Assembly: GCA_951406725.2 (NCBI GenBank)
Contig: OX597825.1
Span: 60,574,001-60,638,000, forward strand
DNA length: 64,000 nt
Source of the DNA: Octopus vulgaris
Lineage: Eukaryota
Reading direction: 5' to 3'
Below are positions 968 through 62,720 of the stretch, piece by piece. Within the stretch, counting starts at the first letter, position 1, and the number at the start of each line of letters is the position of its first letter. The position numbers and the translations under genes were made by a program. The notes beneath the pieces are model-generated. The model had not been told where the DNA came from. It searched no databases and worked only from the letters and a program-made list of their open reading frames with translations.

Positions 968-1379
968 GGCGCAGGAGTGGCTGTGTGGTAAGTAGCTTGC
1001 TAACCAACCACATGGTTCCGGGTTCAGTCCCACTGCGTGGCATCTTGGGCAAGTGTCTTCTACTATAGCCTCAGGCCGACCAATGCCTTGTGAGTGGATT
1101 TGGTAGACGGAAACTGAAAGAAGCCTGTCGTATATATGTATATATATATAAGTGTGTGTGTATATGTTTGTGTGTCTGTGTTTGTCCCCCTAGCATTGTT
1201 AATGTTGACAACCGATGCTGGTGTGTTTACGTCCCCGTCACTTAGCGGTTCGGCAAAAGAGACCGATAGAATAAGTACTGGGCTTACAAAGAATAAGTCG
1301 ATTTGCTCGACTAAAGGCGGTGCTCCAACATGGCCGCAGTCAAATGACTGAAACAAGTAAAAGAGTAAAGAGTAAAGAG
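968..1379 (+). mobile_element. tRNA-derived SINE, family A (ggcgcaggagtggctgtgtggtaagtagcttgc... head)
   Basis: A box (tggctgtgtggt) and B box (gggttcagtccc), internal TA/TG tract, (agtaaag)n tail; near-identical copies at 11689/17157, 43066 and 62289. Confidence 0.92.
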
Positions 1380-2481
1380 ATATAACATGATATTGCAGGG
1401 ATTTTTTTTTCTTTAAAGTTCAAAAGTTGTTACAAAAAGTCTCCACGGCATACCACTGCTGATATGTATGCCATAGATTCACTTATTCTTGTGTTCTGTG
1501 CGTTTACACGTCGCTTCAACGAACGAAAAATGCTTCATTTTCTTGGTTTTTTTACAAAGCAATTCATCTGCTTATTCTTAACCAAACCATATTATCGACT
1601 CCTATAAATCTACTTCCCGAGTAATGTTGTTGCCTTTGTTCAATGGATGCCGTATTTTCAAACATTGCTAGTGTCATAATTTTTTTCTCATATTCTAGTA
1701 TTGTCCCAAATATACCATATTGTATTTTTATTCTGAACTACATATACTTCCCACAATATCTGAAATGATTAATGAAAATAACTATGTTCTCCACATATAA
1801 CACATTGTGTCTGCGACTTTATATTTGCAGTGAGTTGCATATTCTCCCAGTAGATTTTTCTGGTAGGTAGCTCATGTTACTTGAATGGCCCATACAAGAT
1901 TTGTGTATACAAAGAAAACACTATCAATGCGAGTAATCGATGATTGTTTGAAATAACTGGCTTAACTCTTATTCAAATAATCAATAATTTTATTTTTACC
2001 GTAACAGTTTTTGTAAAGAATATTTTTCAATAGTTCGATCTTGTACCATTTCTCTGAATTGTTCGTCAGTTTATAATATTTTAAGGGAAAATTTAACGTG
2101 AATATATTTAATGTTTGAAATTAAATAAGCGCTTTACTTTTTAACTGTTATCTGTACAAATCTTATTCATAGTCTTAAATTTACATCGGAATTGCCATAA
2201 GATATGCATACATTTACTAAAAGTAATATATTTTGATCGAAACGTATTATTGATTTATTTAACTACAGCATTACAAATTTATAGAAATATTGAAGCAGAC
2301 TATTTTTCTATTCATACATTCCTGGACGGTAATAACGGTGTAAGGATAATGAAAACTGTTTCAATGAACGACTGAAATCGTCTCCCGAAATAGGCGCATT
2401 ATGAATTTATTCCTTATACTTATCGCTTTTAGGTTTCTCCAATAATTTAAAGATTAATATTGAAAACGAATCTAATGAATA

Positions 2482-3021: not shown

Positions 3022-4191
3022 ATGAAAAGGCACGCAGTAATCATTGCCTTAAGAGATACCTCGCTTCCTGTAAGTTTCCCGATCTTTCGTTATCAAAGTT
3101 CCAAAAGACCTGAAAGCTGTTGACGGTAATCAAACATCAGTTGGTACGCGCAGGGCGCACAGAGATCTAGTAACATCAGAATATATAACATTACCTAAAG
3201 CCTCCAATAAATAAACGATAAGATCTTCGGAGAGTGAATCCGAGCTATTGCAAAGCACTGGTAGATTTCATAATGCACCATCAGACGAAATGTGTATGAA
3301 GACATTCGGTAGGTACAAGTGGTATGTGATACAGAGGATTCAGTTTATGTTGGATGCGATAAGAGGGAATCGTTCGATCGTGTAAAGCGCTTGATAATCA
3401 AGCCGTATTTCGTCTGCCGCTACGTTCTGAGTTCAAATTCCGCCGAGGTCGACTTTGCCTTTCATCCTTTCGGGGTCGATTAAATAAGCACCAGTTACGC
3501 ACTGGGGTCGATGTAATTGACTTAATCCCTTTGTCTGTCCTTGTTTGTCCCCTCTATGTTTAGCCCCCTGTGGGCAATAAAGAAATAGATAATCAAGCTG
3601 AAGCATTGAGAGGCTGGCATACTTTGGTTTTTCTCCGATGAGAAAAGCGTCGATTAGTGCCAAAAGGTAAAGTGGAAGGACAAAAGATGGTTATCCAGAG
3701 ACGCGAATGAGTTCCAATAGTTATGCATATTAGGTTTGCCAGCAACCGTGATGTTTCTGGGAGTCGTCAGTAACGAAGGAAATATCGAAGTTCCAATGCC
3801 GTTGTCTACACAGAAGTGCTGGAAAAAGTCGTGAGACCTTTGATAGAAAGAGTACGCAAAGGAAGATCTTACGTTTTCCACTAAGACTCTGTACCGTCTC
3901 ATAACTCTTGAAGGATCCTGGCGTGGATACGTGCCTATATCTATGATCATGTTCTCTCAGACACATGGCCTCCTGGCTCATTAGACTTCAATCCAATGAA
4001 TTATAATATTTGGGGCGTAGTCGAGAGAGAGAGAGCTCAATAATCACCACCATAATGATATACACGCTCTCAAGTCTGCCATTAATAGCACTTTATCCCA
4101 AACTAATAAAGATCGTATGATTTGGGCATGTTAAAATTTTCGATAGACCTGCATTGAAGCAGAACTCTGATGTTTCATTGAACAGATGTAA
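3022..4191 (+). pseudogene. Decayed Tc1/mariner-superfamily transposase (maT/DD37D-like), interrupted by a SINE
   Basis: Fragments read MKRHAVIIALR (3022), FSDEK (~3630), TWPPGSLDFNPMNYNIWGVVERE (~3963-4030; cf. WPPxSPDLNPxDxxxWG); many stops and frameshifts. Confidence 0.8.
3404..3587 (+). mobile_element. SINE family B, 5'-truncated, Tx1-like tail
   Basis: Central gactttgcctttcatcctttcggggtcgat domain; tail ...tccttgtttgtcccctct...gggcaataaagaaata; 11-bp TSD gataatcaagc at 3393-3403 and 3588-3598. Confidence 0.9.
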
Positions 4192-6938: not shown

Positions 6939-7168
6939 TATTTCTTTATTGCCCACAAGGGGCTAAACATAGAGGGGACAAACAAGGACAGACAAAGGGA
7001 TTAAGCCGATTAGATTGACCCAGTGCGTAACTGGTACTTATTTAATCGACCCCGAAAAGATGAAAGGCAAAGTCGACCTCGGCGGAATTTGAACTCAGAA
7101 CGTAGTGGCAGACGAAATACCGCTAAGCATTTCGTCCGGCGTGCTAACGTTTCTGCCAGCTCACAGCC
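6939..7168 (-). mobile_element. SINE family B, full length, Tx1-like tail
   Basis: Homologous to 3404, 35807 and 49627; flanked by attttctataaaatt duplication. Confidence 0.9.
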
Positions 7169-7859
7169 TTAATTTTCTATTTTCTATAAAATTTTCTATA
7201 AAAATTATGTTAGAGACACAAATCGTTTTTTTACACAGTACATGCCCAATATATTAACCCTTTTCTTACAAAGGGGATACTGGTTCTCAGTGTAGTGGAA
7301 TTTATATCTGATGAACGATGAAATGGTTGTACATGTCACACATTTTTTCCATCAAACTTTGCGTTAGACTAACGTACAAGAAACCTCTGTGCCGTAGAAC
7401 AGGGTGTTAGAAATAACAACCTACTAGCAAGATTCTATATGTTCTTGAGTTCATGAAATTCCTAATTTAACACCTTAGTCTATGCAAAAGATATACTCGC
7501 AATAACCAACAATGCCACCGCCGAATACTTTCTTTTAGATAGCGTGTTAGTGCTAGTATCTGCACGTACAACACACTCGTATACATTCTCATATAGAGAT
7601 AAGTATATGTACATATGTGAACGTATATGCATGTGTGATTGTACATGTCCATGTACATGTTTAGCTTTCTATACACATATACATATATAATGACGCGCGT
7701 ACACAGAGATATACATACACGCACATACATACAGACACGTAGACAGGCGTGCACACGCACATTCACACACGCAGAGGCTTGTGTCAATGCGTGCATAACT
7801 ATATCTCTTGTTTTATCCACCAATCAGACCTTTGTCCCCTTTCACTTTGCAATATTTCA

Positions 7860-11118: not shown

Positions 11119-11688
11119 ATAAAGTGCTACAATATGAACTGTCATAGACTGGGTAACTTTTCAAGTATACATTTGCCTCCATAAATAATACCAGAAAATA
11201 TGGCATACATGCAATGGTTAAAAATCAATTTTTATAACATTTCTTACACAAAATAATGAAATGTATAGTAAATTTCAGAAGAAAAAATATTTATTGCCTT
11301 AAAACGAAATTAAATAACACAAATATCTCAATGGTATAAATCGTCTCATAACTACTCCGTCATTTACTCTATCTCCTTCTATCCTGTGTCTCTCTGGCTG
11401 TATTTGCAAATAGCATTACTTTACCAGGCAGAATTCGCCTTGCTGTGTGTGATAAAGAATGGGCCGTTGTATTGCCAGGTTCTGTACATTTTCTCTCTAC
11501 CAAATTACGAGCAAAGGATTCTATATGAGTGTCTGCTGCACTCAACTTGGCAGATATCCTAAGTTTGAGGATCTAACTCCTTGATTTCGAGATTGGAAAT
11601 TGGTGTTCTTAACCATTCCTTATTTTTACATGCAAGCTGAAATAAAAGAAATAAGGCAACAAAATGAATGATTAAATAACCTAACATA

Positions 11689-11726
11689 GGCGCAGGAGTG
11701 GCTGTGTGGTAAGTAGCTTGCTAACC
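11689..11726 (+). mobile_element. 5' part of a family A SINE split by the Tx1 insertion
   Basis: Identical to the start of the 968 copy; continues at 17157. Confidence 0.92.
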
Positions 11727-12115
11727 TCACTGACAGAAGAGTGACTTTGCCTACCGTACTACGGTTTGGACGCGTTTTCTTCCCGGTAAGAGTTTTGCTG
11801 TGTTGTTAATTGTTGAATTCCTACTACTGAAAATTTGCCTTTAAACGTTGCTGAACTGTCTTGTTCTCCGGTTTTACCGGGAAATAATTGAATAATTTCT
11901 TACCGTTGAACTGTTAGCCACTGTGGCTTTTTATTTACGTGACTATATATAGTCCTGCCAGACTATTTTCGTGCCCCTCCCCCGAATGGGGGTGGGAATT
12001 GGAATTTTTGAACTGCTTTTTTGAACTACTTTGGAAGAAAAACTTTCTATAGGTTTCCCAGTTTTGTGGGAAACCAATATTCGTAATTTTTGTGTTGTCT
12101 AATTTCAACAGAATA

Positions 12116-13518
12116 ATGTCTGTTGAAATTATTCACGAAAGTAGTGCTCTTGAGGAGAGCAATGTTAAAAAATTTTCTGAGGTAGCCGCAGTGGCTACCG
12201 AGAAAATTGACATCGATGTCAACCAGCTCGTCGAGCTATTTAAAAGAATGCAAGAGGAGGGTGGTGATGTTAAAATATCACCCTCCGCCAGTATCGTGGA
12301 GACCGAGAAGCGGACCGTAGTGTTTAAAACTTTCTGTCCACAAAGCAGAAGGTTCAAACACTTTGAAAAAAGCACCATCGAGAAATGCCTGTCCCCGATT
12401 TGGAAGGACATCGTGTACGTCGCCAGGGGACGGGCATATGGCACTGTGGATGTCCGCTTCTCGGGGGAAGAAATGGCCCGCGGGCATTCTGTGAACCCCC
12501 TAAAAACCAAGGAGGTGGTACTTTTTCCAAGCTATAGGGGACGCAGGTCGTCCCGGGTCAGGATTGTAGAAGCCCCGCCGGACGTAGATCCGGTAGAGGT
12601 AGTGGCCGCCCTGTTATATAAAAGGGCGGACAAAATAAAAATACTAGAAGTAACATGCTCTACCCCTCGATTTTGGCTCGGGCGTAACATTAATATATTA
12701 ATTCAAGGAACAGCGGAGGACCTGCAGCTCCTTCCTGAGAGGGTGCTCGTGGGCGAGAACGTAGCCCTCAGGGTACAGGTCGAAGGCCGAAAACCCACCT
12801 GTTACGCCTGCAGCAAAAAGGGCCACATTCGTGTAGACTGTCCAGACAAGCAAAAGAAACCGCAGACACCAGGCCCCTCAGATAATAAAAAAGTCCCTAC
12901 CCTTGCAAACACACCTACCCCTACAAAAACAAAAAATCCCACTCCTGCTGTTACGGTGCCAACCCCAAAACAGACTGAAGAAAAAACCCAGCCCTCGCAC
13001 TCACAAACCCCTACACTATTAAAACCTCCCACCCCCTAAAAACTGCGGCGCCTACCGAACAAACTATTGCTACCACAGACGATACCATGGAGGTATCAGA
13101 GGGGGGATTTACACCAGTTCGTAAAAGAATTCGTGCAGCATCCCCGTCCACATCCCCTACAAAAAATAATAAAAACAAAGACACACCACAGACACGGAAA
13201 AAAAAATCCCGCTCAACTGGCCCAGAAAAAGAAGACGAAAAAGAAAATGAACTCATATTAATTGAATTCGACACACAAGACAAATACATAAACGATATTG
13301 TGGTTCAGCATCAGTCAGCAAGACTGTACAACAAATACAAAGATCGAAATAGACACGCGTGGATTGCGGAAACAACGTTCAAACAATTAAAAGACAGACA
13401 CCCAAACGCCATCCGGCATGTCGCGAACTTGCCGGACTATCTGAAGAAAGAGGAGAAAGAAGGGGCCCACAAACGTGTGGTGAGGTCGGCCCCCACCTCT
13501 CCAACGAAATGTAAGTAG
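12116..13518 (+). CDS. Retrotransposon ORF1 (gag-like nucleic-acid-binding protein, CCHC zinc knuckle); one frameshift between 12979 and 13036
   Basis: ATG 12116; CYACSKKGHIRVDC knuckle; Pro/Thr-rich linker ends at TAA 13037-13039 and continues in another frame (LKTAAPTEQ...MEVSEGGFTPVRKR...) to TAG 13518, 16 nt before ORF2. Confidence 0.85.
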
Positions 13519-13534
13519 AACCTTTACTTTTGTA

Positions 13535-16500
13535 ATGGCTTCGCTTAACCTTGGTTGTTTAAATGTGCGTGGTCTGAGTTCGAAGTGGAAGCAGGCTTGT
13601 TTCCTCGACGACCTCAGATCACATGATATACATGTGATGGTTGCTACAGAGACCAAGCTGGACAGCCTACAAACCTTCTCGCCTCTCCTGAATGGCTACG
13701 AGAAAATCAGGTCTCCTGGCCAGACCGGAGGGCGAGGGGGCGTAGTGGTACTGATCCGTAAAGACTTGGCTCTACAGACAAGTACAGTCTATGTAGACCC
13801 AGAAGGTGGGCTGGTCATCCTTGATGTGACATACAGCAGTAAGGCCTTCAGGTTGATCGGACTCTATGCACCTTGTGCTAGAGGTTTCCAAACTGATTTT
13901 TATCGGCGCCTAGAGGGCTTTCTCGTGACGTCGAAGACTTTAGTGATGTTAGGGGACTTTAATGCTATCGTTGACGTACACATCGATAGCGTTGGCTCGA
14001 TCTATAGGAAAGTGAACTCACGTCTCGTGGATCTGCTTAAGCGGTTTCAGCTAGCAGATCGTTATAGACTTGACCATCCGAACGTCCCAGAGTGGACCTG
14101 GATGAGTGGCGACGGAAGGTTCAAGTCTTATCTAGACAGGATAGTGATAAGAACTAGAGATAAGTCTAGTTTTAGTTGTCCACAGCTCGTCCAGGTGCCC
14201 TATACTGACCATAGAATGGTCACGTGTAGACTGGACATAGATAGCACACTTAAGATAGGAACCGGCTACTGGAAGCTGAACAAGTCTATTTTGACACGCG
14301 AGGCATACCGTAGCCGGATTAAGGTGCTAGTGCAGAGGGCGTTAACCGGAGCCGTGGTTAATAACCGGTGGTGGTTCACCCTCAAAGAAGCCATTCGATT
14401 CGAGTCCATTAGATTTAGTAAACAACTAAGACTAGATAGGGCTAGAATAGAAGGGCAACTAGTTAAGAACTTAGAGGAGGCGTTGAGGTTGGGCTCTGCA
14501 TCTCACATTTTAGCGGCGAGAACGGCATTAGACCGTCACCTCAAAACCAAACATGAGGGATGTAGAGTCCGGGCTAAAGTACGAGCATTGGGCCGTGAGG
14601 GAATTAATGTTGCCGGATGGGCCCGTACGATAGAAACACAGCGTGGAAACGATGCCACAATTGGGTCTCTTGTTGATGAAAACGGATGCACGATCAAGAA
14701 GCGGGACGAGATGTGTGAGGCACTCCACAAGCACTTCGCCGAGTTGTTCGGGAGGTGCGGGACGCTGGATCATGGTGAGGCCCTTAGGGACTTCCTGTCT
14801 GGTGGCCCGCGCCTCTCGACACGAGAGGCTGAGTGCTGTGAAGGGCCAATCACAGCCGAGGAAGTAATCGAGGTGTTGGGCAAGTGCCCCGGGGAGAAGT
14901 CGCCGGGTCTCGATGGTCTGCCCTATGAATTTTATAGAAGTATGCCAAACTTGTTCGGGCACCTGCTGGCTAGCGTCTACGCCAACTGGCAGCAGAATGG
15001 GAGAATTCCCAAGTCTGCGAGCCGGGGGGCGGTGACCTTGATCAGGAAGGACCCGAACAAGGGGGACGAGATAGGGAACTTCAGGCCCATAACTCTGTTA
15101 AACACAGAGTTAAATATTCTGGCCAAGGTGCTAGCAAAAAGGTTGGCGCGGGTCGTGGACAAACTTGTCGGGGAAGCGCAAACGTGCGCTATCCCCGGCA
15201 GAACGATCCACGACAATCTCCACCTTATACGCTACTCCTTAGAGAGGGTGGGGAAGCTTTCTGGCGCAGGGGGAGCACTGGTACATTTAGACCAGTCCAA
15301 AGCATTTGATAGGGTCGACCATCGGTACCTGGCGGCGGTCCTCGGAGAGGCTGGCCTAGGCCCGACCTTTCGAGGTTGGATCGCTGCTTTGTATAGCGAC
15401 ATCGAGTCTGTAGTCAAGGTGAACGGTTCCTTTTCGAAGCCGTTCAGGATCGAACGTTCAGTTCGTCAAGGGTGTCCCCTGTCCTCGCTCCTATACGTAT
15501 TGGCTCTTGAGCCTTTGCTGCGGAAGTTGGAGGCACTAGGGGGCGCGCCGCATGATCTATGGTGTGGAAGAGGAGCTACGGCGTATGCGGATGACACCTC
15601 CATCATCGTGGCAGACGAAGGCCAGCTTCCAGTGGTGGAAGAGGCCATAAAAAGCTACGAGGCGGTGGCAGGAGCAAAGGTTAACAAGGACAAGTCGGTC
15701 GGTTTGCAACTCGGCACCTGGAGGGGCAAGCCGATGCCGTCCAATAACGTCGTAGGGCGTTGGACGGAAGGTCCTGTTAAGCTGCTCGGAGTCTGGTTCG
15801 GGCCAGACCTCCAGATTGAGAAAAATTGGAGTGAGGTGGCCAACAAGGTGACCGCTCTAACCCAGACCTGGTCTGGGCGGGCGTTATCCCTGCTAGGGAA
15901 GGCGGAGGTGGTGCAGATGTTTATAGCATCAGTAATCACCTACCGTCTGACCGTGGTGCCTTGCCCCGATTTGTGGCTGAACAAGTAGGAGAGAATCCTT
16001 TTCCGATTTTTGTGGAAAGGAGGAAAGCCACTTGTAAAGCGCTCTGTCTGCTGCCAGAAACCGCTAAAGGGTGGGCTAGGGATGCCTTGGCTGAGGATGC
16101 GAAAACTCGCGTTAAGGTTGAGGCACCTCTGGCTTTACCTGGATGGAGAGCAGGTGTGGTCGCCGCACGTCCGGTTCTACCTTCCCCAGTTAACATCCCT
16201 AACGGACATCGGTGCATGGATCAAGCGGAGACCTAAACTGAGTGAATGGCATTTGGAGTGCCGTCAGGCGCTCCAGCTACTATCTCGGGTGGGCAACGCC
16301 GGCAACAGGAGTTCCACCACGGATTTCTATAGCGGGTTAGTGGAGATTAAGTCCGAAGACGCCTTGGGGGAGACCCTGGGCTACGATGAAAATCAGTTGA
16401 TCAACCTGTTCCGGAGGACGTTCGGGCCGGGGTATCTGGATAATTACCAGAAATCCCTAGCCTGGCAGTGTTTCCGTGCGGCTTTACCTGTTCGCGACAA

Positions 16501-16936
16501 GCTGTCAAGGCACGGTAGTGCCGTCTCGCCGACATGCCCGCGATGTGAGCAGGATAGGGAGACCGTCTTGCACGCATTCGTGGAGTGTCCGGAGTTATCG
16601 GGACTGATAGCTTTTGTAGAACAACTGTTGTCAGTGATGGGAAGAGTACAGCTATCAGCTGAGTCTATCATCGAGATTGTGCCGCCCCCTTTCCTTAACA
16701 GGGAAAGAAAGGCTTGTTTTTTCTGTGTAGTAGCCATACTGAAAGAAACAGTATGGAAGACGCGTACGAAAGGTATAGTGACAGGCACCTTTGTCTCCGG
16801 CCAGGGGTTGATTAACTTTTTTAGTTACCACCTCAGTAGCAAAATCAGGCTGGAGAAGAGGTGTCTGTCACGAGATATGTTTGTGAAAAGATGGAAGCCT
16901 GTGGCATACAAGATGGGTATGTTTGGCACCAGGTAA
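13535..16936 (+). CDS. Retrotransposon ORF2: APE endonuclease + reverse transcriptase + C-terminal zinc finger; single in-frame TAG at 15986-15988
   Basis: APE motifs LNVRGL, ETK, GDFNA, YLDRI, TDH; RT motifs KSPGLDGLP, FRPITLLN, DQSKAFDRVDH, QGCPLS, YADD; frame continues NK*ERILFRFLWKG...GGLGMP...CPRCEQDRETVLHAFVEC. GYWKLN and FLW...GGLG are typical of Tx1/L1. Confidence 0.95.
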
Positions 16937-17156
16937 GTGTGACCGGATCAGAAAGTAAAGGTTCTACCCGGATGGCTGGGTGTCCGTCCTTCGACATGAT
17001 CATTAATATTTTTAAACATTGCCTTCGTAAAATTCATTGTTTATAATCTTATCCGTAATTTCATTCGAAAATTGTAACTGTGTTAAGCTACTTCACCCTT
17101 TATATCCTTGTTTGTCCCCTCTTTGTAAATGCCTAAATGGCAAATTATATGAAATA

Positions 17157-17540
17157 AAGTAGCTTGCTAACCAACCACATGGTTCTGGGTTCAGTCCCAC
17201 TGCGTGGCATCTTGGGCAAGTGTCTTCTGCTATAGCCCCGGGCCGACCAATGCCTTGTGAGTGGATTTGGTAGACGGAAACTGAAAGAAGCCTGTCGTAT
17301 ATATGTGTATATATATATATATATATGTGTGTGTGTTTGTGTGTCTGTGTTTGTCCCCCTAGCATTGCTTGACAACCGATGCTGGTGTGTTTACGTCCCC
17401 GTCACTTAGCGGTTCGGCAAAGGAGACCGATAGAATAAGTACTGGGCTTACAAAGAATAAGTCCCGGGGTCGATTTGCTCGACTAAAGGCGGTGCTCCAG
17501 CATGACCGCAGTCAAATGACTGAAACAAGTAAAAGAAAAA
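17157..17540 (+). mobile_element. 3' part of the family A SINE split by the Tx1 insertion
   Basis: Resumes the family A sequence exactly at the duplicated 16 bp. Confidence 0.92.
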
Positions 17541-30693: not shown

Positions 30694-30777
30694 GTGTGAG
30701 TATGTAATAATAACAATGATATAGGTAGTTGCAGGCATTAAATAGTTGTAGATAGTTATAGAATTATAGCTTATATT

Positions 30778-31313
30778 TATCAAAAGGGCACACGAGGTGC
30801 TAACCTGCTAGAAATAGGAGTTAAAACCCCAAGTAAACCACAAATAACACTGACAAATACAGCAGGAAACAACATTATCGGGCGAACGGGTAAAGAATTT
30901 AGACGTACCTTCACAGCTAAATGCTATATCTTCTGTTACCACATCTGATAATAACAATAATAATATTTATAAAAATATTCGCATTTGAATATTTACTCCT
31001 TATAAAAATATTTACACTGAAGCTGTTCTGATTTTGGCGCCAAACACTTCAGAACGCCGGCAGACTTCAACGTGACGAGTTTGAATATGTTCACTTGGTA
31101 AATATTGTTGATGAGAGTTGAGGGTTTTTCGCCAGAACTCGAAATCATGATACAAGAGTATCCAAAATATGGCATTTAGCTGTGATGGTATGTCTAAAGT
31201 CTTCACCCGTTCGCCCGAATACTGTTGTCTCCTGCTATATTTTTCAATGTTATTGGTAGTTTACTTAGGGGTTTTAAGTCCTATTTCTATCAGGTACTCG
31301 CCTCGTGCACCCT

Positions 31314-31320
<7 letters not shown>
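30778..31320. mobile_element. Foldback element (~150-bp imperfect inverted arms) with internal hammerhead-like motif; Penelope pLTR-like
   Basis: Arms ~30778-30930 and ~31167-31320 are reverse complements; right end abuts (TA)n. Confidence 0.75.
31105..31155 (+). ncRNA. Type I hammerhead ribozyme-like motif (C3U variant)
   Basis: ttg-TTGATGA-gagtt..aactc-GAAA-tcatga-TA-caa: stems I and II plus palindromic stem III. Confidence 0.6.
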
Positions 31321-31350
<30 letters not shown>

Positions 31351-31353
<3 letters not shown>

Positions 31354-31851
31354 AAAAAAGTCAGGATAGAAAATGCTAATATAATTTTATAAAAAAAAAT
31401 TACCGGTTTCAGTTATTCAGACTTTTTCAACTGTAAGTATGGAAAATAATTAAATTTTGGAAAAATTAAAAGAAAAGTTTTTCAAAAGAATATTTGCATA
31501 GTGTCCAAATACAAGTGCCATTTTCATAGTTTCTGCCTGTTTTTCTCTCTCTATCTCTCTCTCTCTCTCTCTCGTTGTGAATTCTTGGTAGAGATTCTTC
31601 CCTACCAAGAATTCCCAACGACCTCGAACCCACAAAAGTAAACAAGTGAGAGAGAGAGGGAAACAGCCAGAAACAAGGAAAATGCCACTTGTATTTGCAC
31701 ACTGTGCAAATATTCTTTTAAAAAACTTTTCTTTTAATTTTTCCAAAATTTAATTATTTTCCATACAGTTCATAAAGTCTCAATGACTCAAACCGGTACT
31801 GAAATTTTTTTATAAAATTATTTTAGCATTTTCTATCTTGACTTTTTTCCA
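31351..31851. mobile_element. Foldback element (~200-bp inverted arms, central hairpin) in a TA context; each arm has a hammerhead-like motif
   Basis: Arms ~31351-31570 and ~31648-31851; central 13-bp stem gaattcttggtag/ctaccaagaattc. Confidence 0.8.
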
Positions 31852-32438
31852 TATATATCAACTTGTGTGTTCCTTTTCAACCTTCGACACACACATACAC
31901 ACACACACACTCACACACACACACATACATATATGATGTGTATATGTTTATATATATTGATAATGGTATTTCTATATAATCTTAAAAGTTTATGGCGATC
32001 ACCGTGCAATGACTAAGAAAAATAGTCTAATAAAGTGGTATATATGCCTTCGCAAAAAAGAACGCTTTTCTATCCGCGTTCGAAAGCATATATATATACT
32101 TACATATGCATACACGCATAGACCTATGTAGACATATGAAAATTACATGCATTCTTTAATAAAAAAAGGTGAGTGAACTCTAAAACAATTATTTAGAATG
32201 AGAATTGTACATTAATATATTTGTACCGAACAAACATTACTGAAAATTACATCTTGAAGTAATTAAATGCAGTTTTGTTTTAACAACTAGAAATGAATGA
32301 TTTCAAACGATGTGTGTGTGTGTGTGTGTGCGTGCGTGTGTGTGTGTGTATTTCCAGCTTTGAACTCTGTCTCTTTCTACCCACCATGTTTACAAGTTTT
32401 CCTCAATTTATATTTCTAAAATGCTAATGAGAGTAATC

Positions 32439-35259: not shown

Positions 35260-36278
35260 ACCAGTATCATGATCATTGGTGCTGGGTATCGAAATTCCGA
35301 CATAATAATCCCCGTTCAATTCTTTGCGAACAGTATGAAGGCGGTACGACGTGACGTGGGTAGTTGCCACGAAGATTACGAAGCTGTGACTGGCAGGAAA
35401 GGATATGTTAGACGTTCCAACTGCATCAACACGCCGGAATTCATACCAACATATTTGAACAGTGCCTTAGGCTCAGTTCAGATGGTTATGTGAAGCTGCT
35501 GGATAACATAATCAATGTCTGGTTAAAGAGTGTTGCTGTTCAAGAATTTATAATTGGCAGCAGAATTCAGCACCTGGTCCATTCCTCCGGAAAGAATCAG
35601 GTGTGCTTCTCAGAGTATTTCTTATTTCTTTATTGCCCACAAGGGGCTAAACATAGATGGGACAAACAAGGACAGACAAAGGGATTAAGTCGGTTACATC
35701 GACCCCGGTGCGTAACTGGTACTTAATTTATCGACCCCGAAAGGATGAAAGGCAAAGTCTACATCGGCGGAATTTGAACTCACAACGTAAAGACACACGA
35801 AATACCTATTTCTTTACTACCCACAAGGGTCTAAACACAGAGAGAACCAAAAAGGACAGACAAACGGATTAAGTCGATTACATCGACCCTAGTGCGTAAT
35901 TCGTACTTATTTAATCGACCCCGAAAGGATGAAAGGCAAAGTCGACCTCGGCGGAATTTGTACTCAAAACGTAACGGCAGACGAAATACCGTAAATCATT
36001 TCGCCCGGCGCGCTAACATTTCTGCCAGCTCGCCTGCCTTCTCAGAGTATTTCTACGAGTTCACCAGCCCCAATTTCCTCGATTTTAATCCCGTGTATTG
36101 CTATTATGGGATGTGGCTGAGAAAGACACTAATAGCTGTACATGCAACACCAAGGCAGAACTGGTGGTCAAGATAAAGATCTTCCAGAATTTTCCCGGAG
36201 ACCCAGTGAGGAATGTACGAGCAAGGTCCGAGTCATCTTGAGGCCTTGATGAAGGTTGAGGGTAGCTACTTAGAGTAA
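35260..36278 (+). pseudogene. Decayed Tc1/maT-like transposase C-terminal part, interrupted by a SINE dimer
   Basis: EFTSPNF-LDFNPVY (WPPxSPDLNP remnant), AEKDTN, SHLEALMKVEGSYLE*. Confidence 0.6.
35623..36037 (-). mobile_element. SINE family B dimer (full unit 35807-36037 plus headless unit 35623-35806)
   Basis: Two tandem bodies and tails; one 17-bp TSD cttctcagagtatttct at 35606-35622 and 36038-36054. Confidence 0.9.
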
Positions 36279-40416: not shown

Positions 40417-40810
40417 TATATAAAATCAGTTCTGTCTGTCTGTGTGTCTTCTCGGATCTCGGGTATCCTCCATCCGATTGCACTCAAATTTGATATGTAG
40501 ATACCTATCTCTTTAGTACCCACAAGGGACTAAACACAGAGGGGACAAACAGGGACAGACAAACGGATTAAGTCGATTGCATTGTCCCCAGTGCGTAACT
40601 GGTACTTAGTTTATCGACCCCGAAAGGATGAAAGGCAAAGTTGACCTCGGCGGAATTTGAACTCAGAACGTAACCGCAAACGAAATACGGCTACGCATTT
40701 CGCCCGGCGTGCTAAAGTTTCTGCCAGCGATATCAGGGCGTGTATAAGTCTTGAAAATTACAAAAATCGATTCCAGGTGAGAATGCGATCGATAAAGCCG
40801 TTTTTGCCTT
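40413..40810 (+). mobile_element. 5' part of a non-autonomous Helitron-like repeat, interrupted by a family B SINE
   Basis: Starts TC-ttatataaaa then (gtct)n after (TA)n; ccgattgcactcaaatttg motif resembles 44913-45439. Confidence 0.5.
40506..40728 (-). mobile_element. SINE family B, Tx1-like tail
   Basis: Homology to 6939-7168. Confidence 0.88.
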
Positions 40811-42134: not shown

Positions 42135-42290
42135 ACATGGCTGTGGTAAGAATTTTGCTTTCCATCCACATGGTTCTGGGTTCAGTCTCACTGCATGACA
42201 CCTTGGGCAATTGCCCTCTACTATAGCTCCGAGCCGACCAACGCCTTGTAAGTAGATTTGGTAGTCCGAAATTGGAATACGTACATGCAT
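42135..42290 (+). mobile_element. Degraded family A SINE head
   Basis: tggctgtggtaag...ccacatggttctgggttcagtctcactgc similarity. Confidence 0.75.
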
Positions 42291-42396: not shown

Positions 42397-43065
42397 CTCT
42401 ACACATTTTGTTTTCATTCTCTATTTATTTACTCTTATTCCTTTCAACCGAAGAGCGTATGCTCGAAACGTAGAAGACTTTTCTATTTTCCCTAGCGTCA
42501 AACTAATATACTTGTTTGTTGTTCCTACACTTGTCTTCGTCTTTAGTTTTTCTATAAATTTGAACTATATGCATTTATATGTATACTCATAGACCAATAT
42601 ATATGTAAATATATTTATTATTTTTAAACAGGAATTTTTTGTTTAAAGATGATAAATATGTACTCTACAAAAGTAGAGAGTAACCCATCACATTAATGCA
42701 AATTACTTTTTATTTTAACTGAAAATAAAACCAACCATATACACGTATATGTACTGTATACATGAGAGACGTTATACTATCAAACTATTGAATTGAAGTT
42801 AGCACAGACATCATAATGGGATGTTTTATGGATTTTAATCGGTTACGTGTGTTTAAATATTAAGTTAAAATAACACTCATATCAATAAAATATATTACCT
42901 GAATATTCTGATCCATTATAATCACTGCGGCGTTGCATCAAAAAGCTTTGACTATGAATTGAAAAGGGGGAAATTATTATGTATTTTTGGTGCCATGTTT
43001 ACATAGGTATTTATATATGTGCGTGTTTGTGCTTGTGTGTATGTGTGTGTGTGTGTATGCGTATA

Positions 43066-43285
43066 TACTCTTTACTCTCTTTTACTCTTTTACTTATTTC
43101 AGTCATTTGACTGCGGCCATGCTGGAGCACCGCCTTTAGTCGAGAAAATCGACCCCGGGACTTATTCTTTGTAAGCCCAGTACTTATTCTATCGGTTTCT
43201 TTTACCGAACCGCTAAGTGACGGGGACGTAAACACACCAGCATCGGTTGTCAAGCAATGCTAGGGGGACAAACACAGACACACAA

Positions 43286-43332
<47 letters not shown>

Positions 43333-43497
43333 TACGACAGGCTTCTTTCAGTTTCCGTCTACCAAATCCACTCACAAGGCATTGGTCGGCCCGGGGCTAT
43401 AGCAGAAGACACTTGCCCAAGATGCCACGCAGTGGGACTGAACCCGGAACCATGTCGTTGGTAAACAAGCTACTTACCACACAGCCACTCCTGCGTA
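43066..43497 (-). mobile_element. Family A SINE, full length
   Basis: Near-identical reverse complement of 968-1379. Confidence 0.92.
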
Positions 43498-43879
43498 TAA
43501 TATATATAATGTATAATATATCCGAAAAGAAGCACACTCTAAAACAGAGTGCGGTAATATATTTATATGCAGTTAAGTCTATGCCCGGTCATAGTGTTCA
43601 GTGGTTTCGCATCCACTTAGGACTTAGCTCCATGGACGGTTCGACAGATCCTAAAACAGAAGGCAAATGTAACTCTTTATCTCTGAGAGGCTGGAATATG
43701 TTACGGCCAGTTGGTCAGTAAGTCACGAAAGAAGAAATAAGCTGGATCGGCGAGTACAGGTTATCTCCCTTAGACCAGTTCATCTGGGCCAAAGTAGAAG
43801 GAATAGAGAATTTTCCCTCTGAGTTGTTTTTAATTCGTAAGGACCTTCCGGGTCTAATCGGAAAACAGAATCCCATGCT

Positions 43880-49626: not shown

Positions 49627-49871
49627 TATTTCTTTACTACCCACAAGGGGCTAAACATAGAGAGGACAAACAAGGACAGACAAACGGATTAATTCGATTA
49701 CATCGACCCCAGTGCGTAACTGGTACTTAATTTATCGTCCCCGAAAGGATGAAAGGCAAAGTCGACCTCGGCGGAATTTGAACTCAGAACGAAATACCGC
49801 TTAGCATTTCGCAGACGAAATACCGCTTAGCATTTCGCCCGGCGTGCTAACGTTTCTGCCAGCTCGCCGCC
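49627..49871 (-). mobile_element. SINE family B, full length, Tx1-like tail
   Basis: 16-bp TSD ttgcttttattcttct at 49611-49626 and 49872-49887; internal 24-bp duplication acgaaataccgcttagcatttcgc. Confidence 0.92.
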
Positions 49872-49989
49872 TTGCTTTTATTCTTCTACTACGCTGGCAG
49901 AAGTGTTGGTGCATCGAAGAGATGCCTTGGCAAGTCTATTTCAGTTCATTGTTCACATTTCACGGAAGTAAATTTTATTACCTTTGGTA

Positions 49990-55459: not shown

Positions 55460-56322
55460 GTGTATGTACATCCTTGGGCAAATGTGAAAAATTCTCTAGA
55501 ACTTTTAGGATGTCATAGTTTGTGTGACTCCTTACATATATAAATGCAAAAATTAATGCGTATATTTGTGCATGTGCATGCGTCACATAATAAAGATAAA
55601 CAAATTTCGATGTTAATAAAAAAAAAGTAGAATATATTATTAATTCAAAAATAAAGGAATAACAACACATCAGGAAATTAGAATAAAGAAACTCCTGAAA
55701 GTTGAAGCGTTGTTCAGAATATATATGGAATAATATAGCACAGGAAATGCATATTAATAGCGATGAAAATCTGTACTCAGGTAATGGTGTGTGTGTGTGT
55801 GTGTGTGTGTGGAGGGGAAATGTTTATAGAACGAAATAAGAAAAACAGGAAATATACATTAATTAAAAATATTCTGTTGGAATTGAAAAACAAAAAAGAA
55901 AGAAAGCGAAAATCAAGAGAATATAAATGTAAAATCTTTTTATAAATTTCCAAACTGTGAACAAAAGCCAAAAACCGCAGTAACAATAATAGTATTCGTG
56001 TCAACATCTTTATTTCTAAGAAATCTGGTGCTGTTGTTGATACGTAGGGAAATATGTCAGAAGCAATCACAGCATAAGAATGTTTTTTTTTTGTATTATT
56101 ACCTATTATTATTTTTACAATGCATAAGATTACACCGGCGTGCCTAGGAAACGATAATGGTTGTTTACATCGCCGCAAGTAATTTAATGCTGTTTACATT
56201 ATCGATTTTTCTTGGATATGGCCCCAGACAAATTAGGGATAGGATAATTCTCCAAAATATTTTGACCAGCGTCGTAGCGTTCCTGCTAATTCAGCATCCA
56301 TTTCGTAATCCTTGTTGAAAAT

Positions 56323-56930
56323 GCGGCGAGCTGGCAGAAACGTTAGCACGCCGGGCGACATGCGTAGCCGTTTTTCGTCTGCCGTTACGTTCTGAGTTCA
56401 AATTCCGCCGATGTCGACTTTGCCTTTCATCCTTTTCAGGTCGATATATTAAGTAACAGTTACACACTGGGGTCGATATAATCGTCTTAATCCGTTTGTC
56501 TGTCCTTGTTTGTCCTCTCTGTGTTTAACCCCTTGTGGGTAGTAAAGAAATAGGTATTTCGTCTGTCTACTCGATCTGAGTTCAAATTCCACCAAGATCA
56601 ATGTTGCCTTTCATCCTTTCGAGGTCGATAAAATAAGTACCAGTTGAGTACTGGGGACGATGTAAGAGACCCAGCCCCTTACTCGAAACAACTGCCAAAA
56701 TTTGAAACCAATATAGTTACATGAGCTGGCTGAATCGTTAGCACACCGGGAAACTGCTTAGCAGCATTTCGTCTGTCTTTACGTTCTAAGTTGAAATTCC
56801 GCCGTGGTCAACGCTGCCTTTTATCTTTTCAGAGTTGATAAACTAAGCACTAGTTGAGCAATAGATTCAATATCAACGACTTATCCCCTCTCTTACAATT
56901 ATTGTCCTTGCACCAAAATTTGAAACCAAT
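56323..56930 (+). mobile_element. Cluster of three family B SINE units (first with Tx1-like tail, next two with older tail)
   Basis: Units ~56323-56552, ~56553-56715 (headless) and ~56722-56930. Confidence 0.85.
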
Positions 56931-60341: not shown

Positions 60342-60876
60342 AGAAACCTTGATCAACACCAATTGACTAACATCAATTATTATTTTTAATACAAATCATT
60401 ATCCCATCTAACAGTCACTTCTGCTTCCAATGTCCTACGGTGTTGCCAAGGAACATTTTGAGAATAATATTCGTTATATTTTGTGACACATCCGACCTAC
60501 AGCGTGGAGCTTCATCAGAGTGAAGAAAAATGGATAAAGGAAAAGAGGAATAGCCTCTAGAAGAACAATGAAGATTTAGTATATTGTCTCAACGTCCTGA
60601 AGTGTTACACTGCAAAATGTTATGATTTAAATATATTAAGCCTTCATTCCTATTCTCGAAGCTCTTCCTCTTTTCTATTTTTTTATGTATTTTTCTTCAC
60701 TCTGATGAAGCTCCATGTTCCAGATCGGACGTGTTACTAAATGTGACGAATATTATTCTTAGAATTTTCATTGGCAACACAGTAAGACATTGAAAGCAGA
60801 AACAGCTGTTAGATGGGATAAAGTTTTGTATTAAAAAATAATAATCGATGTTAGCCAATTGTTGATCAAGATTTCT
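60342..60876. mobile_element. Foldback element (~220-bp inverted arms) with hammerhead-like motif in each arm
   Basis: Arms ~60342-60560 and ~60655-60876; right arm ttcact-CTGATGA-agct...agca-GAAA-cagctg-TT-agatggg (60696-60817). Confidence 0.8.
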
Positions 60877-61050
60877 GTCTGTCTGTCTATCTATAGATAG
60901 CAGTATATATCAGAAATAAGGATGCATGCAGGGTTTATATAATACGTCTTGTGCACACATTTGATTGCTTGGAGTACTGGAATAGATGTTCGGAATGCGT
61001 AACCACAACGGAACAGGAAGGAAGGCTTTATTGTATTAAGTTACAGATCA

Positions 61051-61349
61051 ATCGATCAATCCAAGCATTGCATCAATTTGAAATACACCGCCATCTTCGG
61101 ATGCATAGGACCATATAGGTTTTCAACATACAGGATGCTCCATTATAATTTTTTTTCACAGAATTTTCATCAGAAAAGAAATAGAGAATAAAAGGATTAC
61201 GTTATTCCCTATTTCTGATGCGAAATTTGCAAAAAAAAAAAAGAGAAGAATTATAATTGAGTACCCTGTATGTTGAAAACCTATATAGACTTATGCCTCC
61301 AAGGAAGATGGTGTATTTCAAATTGATGTAATGCTTGCGTTGATTGATT
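61051..61349. mobile_element. Foldback element (~125-bp inverted arms)
   Basis: caagcattgcatcaatttgaaatacacc...ataggttttcaacatacagg versus its reverse complement at ~61265-61340. Confidence 0.75.
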
Positions 61350-62251: not shown

Positions 62252-62288
<37 letters not shown>

Positions 62289-62290
<2 letters not shown>

Positions 62291-62702
62291 TCTTTTTTTC
62301 TCTTTTTACTTGTTTCAGTCATTTGACTACGGCCATGCTGGGGCACCGCCTTTAGTCGAGCAAATCGACCCCGGGACTTATTCTTTATAAGGCCAGTACT
62401 TATTCTAACGGTCTTTTTTGCCGAACCGCTAAGTGACGGGGACGTAAACACACCAACATCGGTTGTCAAACAATGCTAGGGGGACAAACACAGACACACA
62501 AACATATACACATATATATATATATATACATGTATATACGACAGGCTTCTTTCAGTTTCCGTCTACCAAATCCACTCATAAGACATTGGTCGGCCCGGGG
62601 CTATAGCAGAAGACACTTGCCCAAGTTGCCACGCAGTGGGACTGAACCCGGAATCATGTGGTTGGTTAGCAAGCTACTTACCACATAGCCACTCCTGCAC
62701 CT
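62289..62702 (-). mobile_element. Family A SINE, full length
   Basis: Reverse complement of 968-1379. Confidence 0.92.
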
Positions 62703-62720
62703 ATATATATATATCTAGTG

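What the first reader, a model, noticed from the sequence alone, without database searches (positions are those of the whole stretch)
11689..17540. Full-length Tx1 retrotransposon inserted between the A and B boxes of a tRNA-derived SINE head
Seen: removing 11727-17172 restores an intact family A SINE like the 968 copy; 16-bp TSD aagtagcttgctaacc. Known: many Tx1-clade elements are target-specific for multicopy small-RNA sequences (Keno/U2, Mutsu/5S, Dewa/tRNA arrays). Inference: this may be a Tx1 family that targets a very abundant SINE (or its parent tRNA) and disables its Pol III promoter. A single copy cannot show specificity, and SINEs are abundant enough here for a chance hit.
Basis: partly seen in the sequence, partly recalled or inferred. 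Interest (0 to 1): 0.75.

Follow-up and report, generated by a model that had tools for sequence, protein, structure and literature searches.

The report
LINE aimed at a SINE promoter
A 5.4-kb jumping gene (a LINE, this copy disabled) sits exactly inside the tRNA-like promoter region of a very common short repeat, probably in an octopus genome; its family likely aims at that one site, and its RNA tail carries a short reverse copy of the site that may help it do so.

Summary
A 5,430-bp L1-group, Tx1-like LINE (11727-17156) lies between perfect 16-bp duplications and splits the A-box and B-box motifs of a SINE that is whole at three other places in the window. This copy is full length but dead (ORF1 frameshift, ORF2 stop).

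New evidence for targeting:
(1) In 1 of 4 public runs laid, a 1,941-nt contig at family depth, lacking this copy's private mutations, begins exactly 30 nt into the SINE head, so it has the same 5' junction.
(2) The 3' UTR holds the reverse complement of the first 9 target bases (1 of 2,000 shuffles; 0.24-0.5% of window positions), unchanged in all four runs.

Limits: no 3' flank of another copy was seen. The contig could be a graph chimera with this locus (6-25% at the estimated depth). The motif was found post hoc. Tx1 membership had no tree.

Verdict: likely (about 0.68) a SINE-head-targeting family. This is a known habit (Tx1 families target other repeats) with a target class I did not find in print. 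RNA-assisted targeting is a testable long shot. A 16-nt inverted repeat also brackets ORF2.

The parts
11689..11726 (+). 5' piece of the host SINE head, ending in the left target-site duplication
   Evidence: identical to the intact copy at 968
11699..11709 (+). A-box-like motif of the SINE head (10 of 11 to the recalled consensus)
   Evidence: sequence; consensus recalled
11711..11726 (+). left 16-bp target-site duplication
   Evidence: D8, 100%
11727..12115 (+). LINE 5' UTR (389 nt); no B-box-like motif seen near its start
   Evidence: run X1 contig joins it to the SINE head
12116..13518 (+). ORF1, about 467 codons, frame change near 13031; zinc knuckle at residues 228-243; N-part resembles RRM + CCHC proteins
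   Evidence: searches (PF00098, E 3e-4; feature score 0.91-0.93), 18 table 4
13515..13530 (+). left arm of a perfect 16-nt inverted repeat; covers the ORF1 stop and the spacer, ends 4 nt before the ORF2 ATG
   Evidence: (I6)
13535..16936 (+). ORF2, 1,133 codons: APE endonuclease, reverse transcriptase, C-terminal zinc finger; premature stop at 15986-15988 in this copy
   Evidence: (human L1 ORF2p E 2.5e-58; R2 E about 1e-19)
16952..16967 (+). right arm of the 16-nt inverted repeat, 15 nt after the ORF2 stop
16937..17156 (+). 3' UTR (220 nt); no poly(A) tail, the AATAAA at its end runs into the first two bases of the duplication
17084..17097 (+). antisense copy of the target: 17085-17093 is the exact reverse complement of 17157-17165; predicted 10 + 3 bp duplex with the target top strand across the insertion point
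   Evidence: unchanged in contigs of all 4 runs (records 8, 16, 24, 32)
17157..17172 (+). right 16-bp target-site duplication
17188..17198 (+). B-box-like motif of the SINE head (10 of 11 to the recalled consensus), now about 5.5 kb from the A box instead of 43 nt
   Evidence: sequence; consensus recalled
17157..17540 (+). remainder of the host SINE; 1.2% from the majority of four window copies
968..1380 (+). intact reference copy of the SINE (empty site); other intact copies at about 43060-43500 (-) and 62280-62704 (-), a degenerate one at 42142

Best explanation
This is a full-length, now inactive copy of a young L1-group (Tx1-like) LINE family that likely inserts by preference at one nucleotide of an abundant SINE head, just 3' of the A-box motif. 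Shown: the architecture, the 16-bp duplication, the split SINE, and a same-junction contig in another sample. Inferred from target-primed reverse transcription in L1-group elements: the APE endonuclease nicks the bottom strand opposite the T|A step at 11710/11711, the freed 3' end primes cDNA synthesis at the RNA's AAUAAA end with only two A:T pairs (or on read-through target sequence), and a second break 16 nt further on gives the duplication. Most likely the protein reads the site, as Tx1L endonuclease does; the antisense 3' UTR segment would either fold back on read-through RNA to mark the 3' end or pair with the top strand and free the primer strand. The SINE would be a safe, very plentiful landing site, and the hit SINE copy would lose its internal promoter.
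For: (1) table 8, run X1 record 1: 1,941 nt, depth 20.4, fits 11697-13636 end to end. 11697 is exactly 30 nt before the element, which is where a 31-mer graph would leave the SINE. It differs from the window by 5 letters and 1 gap; 4 letters are the majority state in the other three runs too, the gap in 44-100% of their depth, and the fifth letter in a third of X7 depth, so it is the subfamily sequence and not this allele. (2) Scaled depths give about 17-33 full-length copies per sample and a 3':5' depth ratio of 1.14-1.87 (rests on one guessed single-locus depth). (3) The 3' UTR antisense 9-mer starts exactly at the insertion point: 1 of 2,000 shuffles, 0 of 503 window tiles; 284 of 117,032 window positions (0.24%) have such a match, 568 (0.49%) on either strand. 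(4) The site is G+C-mixed, not an L1-like T/A tract, and there is no poly(A). (5) Precedent: Tx1 families target piggyBac, Mariner, Harbinger and LTR elements, U2, 5S and microsatellites (PMC4494074); Tx1L endonuclease alone nicks almost only its site (PMC1950540). (6) Weak: relatives at 27-43% identity come in clusters, with near-consecutive locus tags in Patella caerulea and at least three copies apparently on one 26.3-kb contig.
Against: No 3' junction of another copy was seen; one search showed 24 of 1,786 loose-end rows and 15 of 450 joint rows, none informative. Only 1 of 4 runs showed a junction contig; the longest 5' contig in X13 starts at 11736, inside the element, and says nothing on flanks. 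A contig is a graph path: junction words from this very locus could be joined to the family consensus, with probability 6-25% at the estimated depth of 0.6-1.2 and 51-58% at 2.4. X1 may be RNA. The antisense motif was found after the fact; a second 9-nt antisense match lies elsewhere in the SINE (2 of 398 positions), and by free energy the site duplex (-15.9 kcal/mol) is not among the 15 best of 374 SINE tiles. SINEs are 11.6% of the Octopus vulgaris genome (PMC13282606), so one hit in some SINE is cheap. The endonuclease hairpin loop is about L1-sized, not visibly extended (by eye).
Confidence: 0.68

Rival explanations
1. Chance insertion: the family has only a loose T|AA preference and this copy happened to land in a common SINE; the X1 junction comes from this same locus in another animal, and the 3' UTR motif is a coincidence.
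For: Four to five copies of this SINE per 64 kb; the nick sits at a T|AA step like L1's (PMC1950540); chimera probability 6-25%, more if X1 is deeper or RNA; motif post hoc, 0.5% either strand before allowing for several looks.
Against: Needs two separate coincidences (junction contig and motif). The exact site is 4 of about 128,000 strand positions.
Confidence: 0.15
2. The true target is a tRNA gene family (or another SINE family) with the same D-loop/anticodon-arm sequence; hits in this SINE are look-alike insertions.
For: The site corresponds to about tRNA positions 20/21 (numbering inferred from the box motifs). Target-specific elements inside tRNA genes are known: Dada near the A box and anticodon, NeSL-1_TV, LIN15_SM, LIN25_SM.
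Against: The X1 contig matches the SINE head over all 30 nt with no listed difference. No parent tRNA was identified.
Confidence: 0.12
3. The SINE head travels with the element as its 5' end (transcription from upstream after one founding insertion), or whole loci were duplicated; the shared 5' junction is then inheritance, not repeated targeting.
For: Only the 5' junction was seen twice. Crocodilian Tx1 families carry snRNA-derived 5' ends (PMC4758252 passage citing Kojima 2015).
Against: This copy has a whole SINE on both sides and a perfect duplication, so it is itself an insertion into a SINE; it carries at least 17 private substitutions, so it is a descendant, not the source (table 3).
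Confidence: 0.05

Closest known systems
Tx1L in Tx1D (Xenopus laevis); crocodilian Tx1-Mar, Tx1-9_AMi, Tx1-8_Crp, Tx1-4_AMi (PMC4494074 passages and section 15; PMC6719617 passage)
   Same: Two-ORF L1-group LINE with APE endonuclease that uses another interspersed repeat as its landing site.
   Different: Those targets are DNA transposons or LTR elements; here it is a SINE head between the box motifs. Specificity here rests on two junctions, not a genome survey. No sequence comparison with these families was possible.
Keno (U2), Mutsu (5S), Dewa (tRNA-Leu spacer) of the Tx1 clade (PMC4494074, PMC3706591 passages)
   Same: Target is a multicopy small-RNA-type sequence.
   Different: Those are functional RNA genes or their spacer; Dewa sits in the spacer, not inside the tRNA sequence.
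Dada DNA transposons in tRNA genes (PMC3706591, PMC8869645 passages)
   Same: Insert at fixed positions in the A-box or anticodon region of tRNA sequences.
   Different: DDE transposase with 6-7-bp duplications; unrelated enzyme; true tRNA genes.
SART1Bm and R2 RNA-target pairing (PMC7265360 passages; PMC5035012 passages; PMC3636483 abstract)
   Same: [quoted passage not shown]
   Different: In SART1 the RNA pairs with the nicked bottom (primer) strand; here the segment is antisense and could pair only with the top strand or with read-through RNA.
Human L1 ORF2p (PDB 8uw3 and others)
   Same: Colinear APE-RT over query residues 6-810, E 2.5e-58; catalytic motifs align.
   Different: L1 needs a long poly(A) and T-rich sites (PMC10830416 passages); this copy has neither, and its ORF1 has a zinc knuckle.

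Membership tests
L1 group non-LTR retrotransposon | ORF2 with N-terminal APE endonuclease, RT and C-terminal zinc finger, no RNase H or restriction-like endonuclease | tested here: met
   Pfam PF03372, PF00078, PF13966 only; L1 ORF2p 201 bits against 67-74 for R2 proteins
L1 group non-LTR retrotransposon | target-site duplication of roughly 7-20 bp (range recalled) | tested here: met
   16 bp, perfect
L1 group non-LTR retrotransposon | 3' poly(A) tail | tested here: not met
   ends in AATAAA overlapping the duplication, no tail in this copy; other copies not seen
Tx1 clade | RT phylogeny groups it with Tx1L, Keno, Dewa, Mutsu | not testable with these tools
   no named Tx1 reference protein among the hits looked up (27 proteins); no tree built
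Tx1 clade | ORF1 with RRM-type domains and CCHC knuckle (feature recalled) | tested here: met
   zf-CCHC E 3e-4; ESM Atlas neighbours 0.91-0.93 incl. ZCCHC3 RNA-binding domains and RRM_1; RRM not found by Pfam itself
target-specific Tx1 families | most copies share one insertion site | tested here: inconclusive
   same 5' junction in 1 of 4 runs; no 3' flanks seen
target-specific Tx1 families | endonuclease nicks the target sequence specifically | not testable with these tools
   needs a nicking assay; catalytic motifs are present
tRNA-derived SINE (host) | A and B box motifs at tRNA spacing | tested here: met
   978-988 and 1021-1031 in the intact copy, each 10 of 11 to the recalled consensus
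tRNA-derived SINE (host) | detectable homology to a tRNA | tested here: not met
   ARAGORN 0 genes; no Rfam tRNA match to E 10; no cloverleaf in the fold, z -0.23
tRNA-derived SINE (host) | short, dispersed, high-copy, non-coding, simple-repeat 3' end | tested here: met
   4 near-full copies in 64 kb; summed depth of the bin holding the head about 2,000-3,700 times that of the LINE 5' contigs
named octopus SINEs (OK, OR1, OR2) | sequence identity to the published consensus | not testable with these tools
   only citations of Ohshima and Okada 1994 were seen; no SINE library on hand

The most novel reading that the evidence does not exclude
An APE-type LINE whose 3' UTR acts as a built-in guide: a 10-13-nt antisense segment pairs with the top strand of the SINE site right at the nick, displaces the primer strand, and a neighbouring stem holds the RNA 3' end beside it, replacing the poly(A):T-tract pairing of L1. 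Target choice would then be partly reprogrammable by changing the UTR segment, and the LINE would be a dedicated parasite of SINE promoters.
Probability: 0.1. Interest if true: 0.85.

Novelty: new variant of a known kind. Interest (0 to 1): 0.5.

Why it matters
A LINE that targets a SINE's internal promoter is one parasite using and silencing another, with a target supply in the tens of thousands or more (inferred from 4-5 copies per 64 kb), unlike the limited rDNA or snRNA arrays. The family is young and other copies read open where this one is broken, so specificity is testable by counting flanks and by a nicking assay. If the antisense UTR segment takes part in target choice, it would be a new way for an APE LINE to pick and open its site, of interest for RNA-based gene insertion. 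Without it, this is one more target for a clade already known to switch targets; the scan's own notes list about ten similar, unchecked cases in other genomes.

Tried and rejected
No genome is held for the window, so flanks could not be tabulated. No second fragment of the element in the window by blastn or tblastn. Exact-pattern scans found nothing: element 3' end in metagenome contigs, SINE head in viral contigs, 5' junction in prokaryotic genomes. 79 metagenome loci with relatives were all distant (23-37% in the best segment); 58 of the 79 were scanned for tRNA, 1 had two tRNA genes about 2.3 kb past the match, not followed. A peptide read across the 3' junction found no protein. ORF1 found no homologue among 1,926 candidates. 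No RNA holder is on record among the listed runs; not used as evidence. The absence of a loose-end row at 17156 was rejected as evidence because 1,762 rows were hidden. An apparent exon at about 11425-11636 (-) has stops in all three frames, so 'intron of a host gene' was dropped. The inverted repeat around ORF2 is not general: 5-10 nt in 26 of 26 distant relatives that could be tested among the 79 loci. The 11-nt sense match between 3' UTR and SINE body is weak (8 of 200 shuffles). Ranking SINE tiles by duplex energy did not single out the site. No structure or complex prediction was run; none would bear on specificity. Supplements of PMC4494074 could not be read; they list Tx1 targets and may include a SINE. 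Repbase was not available.

Full report
1. Observation. The finding is in the sequence as described. A 16-bp direct repeat stands at 11711-11726 and 17157-17172, and the same 16-mer occurs once in each of two intact copies of a dispersed repeat, at 990 and 62679. 11686-11726 matches the copy at 965-1005 in 41 of 41 letters, and 17157-17536 continues it. An alignment of the window's copies shows the host SINE is whole apart from the insert and differs from the majority of four copies at 4 of 339 columns. The head has A-box-like and B-box-like motifs 43 nt apart in the intact copy (consensus recalled, 10 of 11 each). The insertion point is two bases after the A-box motif ends. ARAGORN and Rfam see no tRNA there, so 'tRNA-derived' rests on the motifs alone.

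2. The element. 11727-17156 has a 389-nt 5' UTR, ORF1 from 12116 with a zinc knuckle and features like RRM + CCHC proteins, a 16-nt spacer, ORF2 13535-16936 with endonuclease, RT and C-terminal zinc finger, and a 220-nt 3' UTR with no poly(A). ORF2 aligns with human L1 ORF2p over residues 6-810 (E 2.5e-58) and far less with R2 (E about 1e-19); the endonuclease motifs are in place. This copy is dead: ORF1 shifts frame near 13031 and ORF2 stops at 15986-15988. The closest named relative is from the octopod Argonauta hians (50-52% identity), so the host is probably an octopus; this is an inference. 'Tx1' fits the ORF1 type but no tree was built: none of the 27 hits looked up carried a Tx1 name.

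3. The family. No genome is held. Twenty of 24 listed public runs, from 7 studies, hold half or more of the element's sampled words. Four runs from four studies were laid on 11640-17215 (all are assembled contigs). At 17 of the 40 substitution rows shown (676 hidden), at least 60% of depth in all four runs differs from the window, including the stop codon, which essentially all depth reads as a sense codon. An extra base at the ORF1 frameshift is in 44%, 97%, 100% and 100% of depth. So the window copy has private damage (at least 0.3%) and the family likely has open members. Scaling depths with one guessed single-locus depth (27.7 in X13) gives 17-33 full-length copies and a 3':5' depth ratio of 1.14-1.87, so most young copies look full length. 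For comparison, PMC13282606 (passages) lists 13 recently active L1-Tx1 families in Octopus vulgaris with 421 insertions in 2,288,644 bp, or 5.4 kb each by my division; whether their filter favours full-length copies was not checked.

4. Test of specificity, first line. In run X1 one contig of 1,941 nt at depth 20.4 fits 11697-13636 from end to end. It starts exactly 30 nt upstream of the element, as expected where a 31-mer path leaves the huge SINE graph. It lacks this copy's private changes (four substitutions and the frameshift) and sides with the window against the other runs at several subfamily positions, so it represents the subfamily, about 17 copies by the scaling. Under targeting this is the expected picture. 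The caveat is real: a contig is a path, not a molecule. If the animal carries this locus, its junction words could be joined to the consensus while other copies' flanks are trimmed as tips (assembler behaviour recalled). A simulation puts the chance that one locus supplies all 30 junction words at 6-25% for word depth 0.6-1.2 and 51-58% for 2.4. X1 may be RNA. The other three runs showed no junction contig among the 32 records displayed, and no row bears on 3' flanks (24 of 1,786 loose-end rows and 15 of 450 joint rows shown). I count this as a roughly fivefold shift.

5. Second line. Folding the 3' end with the downstream target showed a 10-bp helix. 17085-17093 is the exact reverse complement of the first nine bases of the duplication, starting at the insertion point; a wobble pair and, after a one-base bulge, three more pairs extend it across the nick. 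It is unchanged in 3' UTR contigs of all four runs (records 8, 16, 24, 32), so it predates this insertion. One of 2,000 shuffles and 0 of 503 window tiles reach it; 0.24% of window positions have such an antisense match and 0.49% a match on either strand. Against: it was found after the fact, allowing perhaps fourfold for other places I might have looked; one other SINE position has an equal match (2 of 398); the duplex is not outstanding in energy; and the inner stem that would hold the RNA 3' end next to it forms only when the target is present (pair probability about 0.6 against 0.01) and borders an 8-nt indel seen in other copies.

6. How it most likely works. Shown: structure, duplication, split SINE, one further junction. 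Inferred from L1-group biology: bottom-strand nick at the T|A step, priming at the AAUAAA end with two pairs or on read-through RNA, second break 16 nt on. Protein recognition of the site is the default, since Tx1L endonuclease alone is specific (PMC1950540, passages). The antisense segment has two possible roles: folding back on read-through RNA, or pairing with the top strand to free the primer. It may also be a relic of an old insertion at the same site, which would still imply repeated use of that site. Loss of the SINE's promoter follows from the geometry but was not measured. Odds: SINE-head preference 0.68, chance 0.15, tRNA gene as true target 0.12, inherited 5' end or duplication 0.05.

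7. Comparison with what is known. Tx1-clade families target Tx1D, Mariner, Harbinger and LTR elements, U2, 5S, tRNA spacers and microsatellites (PMC4494074 passages and section 15; PMC3706591 passages; PMC6719617 passage). Insertions inside tRNA genes are known for NeSL-type LINEs and Dada transposons (PMC4640811, PMC8869645 passages). RNA-target pairing is known or proposed for SART1 and R2, with the primer strand or through co-transcribed flanks (PMC7265360 passages; PMC5035012 passages; PMC3636483 abstract). Human L1 needs a poly(A) tract and helped duplex opening (PMC10830416 passages). PMC3747384 and PMC4758252 (passages) gave only background. Nine searches turned up no paper on a LINE that targets a SINE head or on an antisense target copy in a LINE 3' UTR. 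The library lacks most subscription papers, Repbase, and the supplements of PMC4494074; Kojima and Fujiwara 2004, Christensen 2000 and Ohshima and Okada 1994 were seen only as citations. The scan's own notes hold about ten unchecked LINE-in-SINE same-site cases in other genomes and none for this genome or sequence. They suggest the habit recurs and lower its rarity; they are not support.

8. A side finding. A perfect 16-nt inverted repeat joins the ORF1 stop and spacer (13515-13530) to the start of the 3' UTR (16952-16967). Seven of 300 shuffles of the element reach that length anywhere; the same regions of 26 distant relatives give 5-10 nt. The commoner subfamily's change in the left arm would leave a wobble pair. 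It may close the RNA around ORF2 and control its translation or hand the protein to its own 3' end; untested.

9. Verdict. Real feature; probably a target-specific family with a SINE promoter as target; a new variant of a known kind. Interest 0.5, carried by the testable antisense segment and the young family; held down by two junctions only and by precedent.

Noticed in passing
window 13515-13530 and 16952-16967: Perfect 16-nt inverted repeat bracketing ORF2, covering the ORF1 stop and spacer; predicted duplex -33.4 kcal/mol with flanks; absent from 26 distant relatives.
   Followed up: partly
window 17109-17119 and about 17349-17359: An 11-nt stretch is shared in the same sense by the LINE 3' UTR and the SINE body; 8 of 200 shuffles reach it, so it may be chance.
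   Followed up: partly
window 13500-16850: Summed depth over ORF2 is 5-100 times that of the 5' UTR in X13 and 2-20 times in X16, with loose ends that read as related coding sequence: many older, related subfamilies exist in this genome.
   Followed up: no
P0054 cluster (Patella caerulea); P0051 cluster: Relatives with near-consecutive locus tags (SNE40_003393-003415) and five proteins from at least three copies apparently on one 26.3-kb contig: clustered or tandem copies, as site-specific LINEs often give.
   Followed up: partly
L078 4731-5126: tRNA-Pro and tRNA-Phe genes lie about 2.3 kb past a distant relative's RT match, on the opposite strand.
   Followed up: no
window 30772-31858, 60342-60876, 61050-61349: Long imperfect palindromes (300-1,100 nt, 73-85% identical arms), possibly MITE-like or foldback elements.
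   Followed up: no
window 3401-3591, 6939-7170, 35620-36040, 40500-40730, 49627-49890, 56320-56660: A second abundant family of about 190-230 nt, with head-to-tail pairs at 35620-36040 and 56320-56660.
   Followed up: no
window about 11425-11636 (-): Exon-like stretch with acceptor and donor signals 50 nt from the SINE, but with stops in all three frames.
   Followed up: partly
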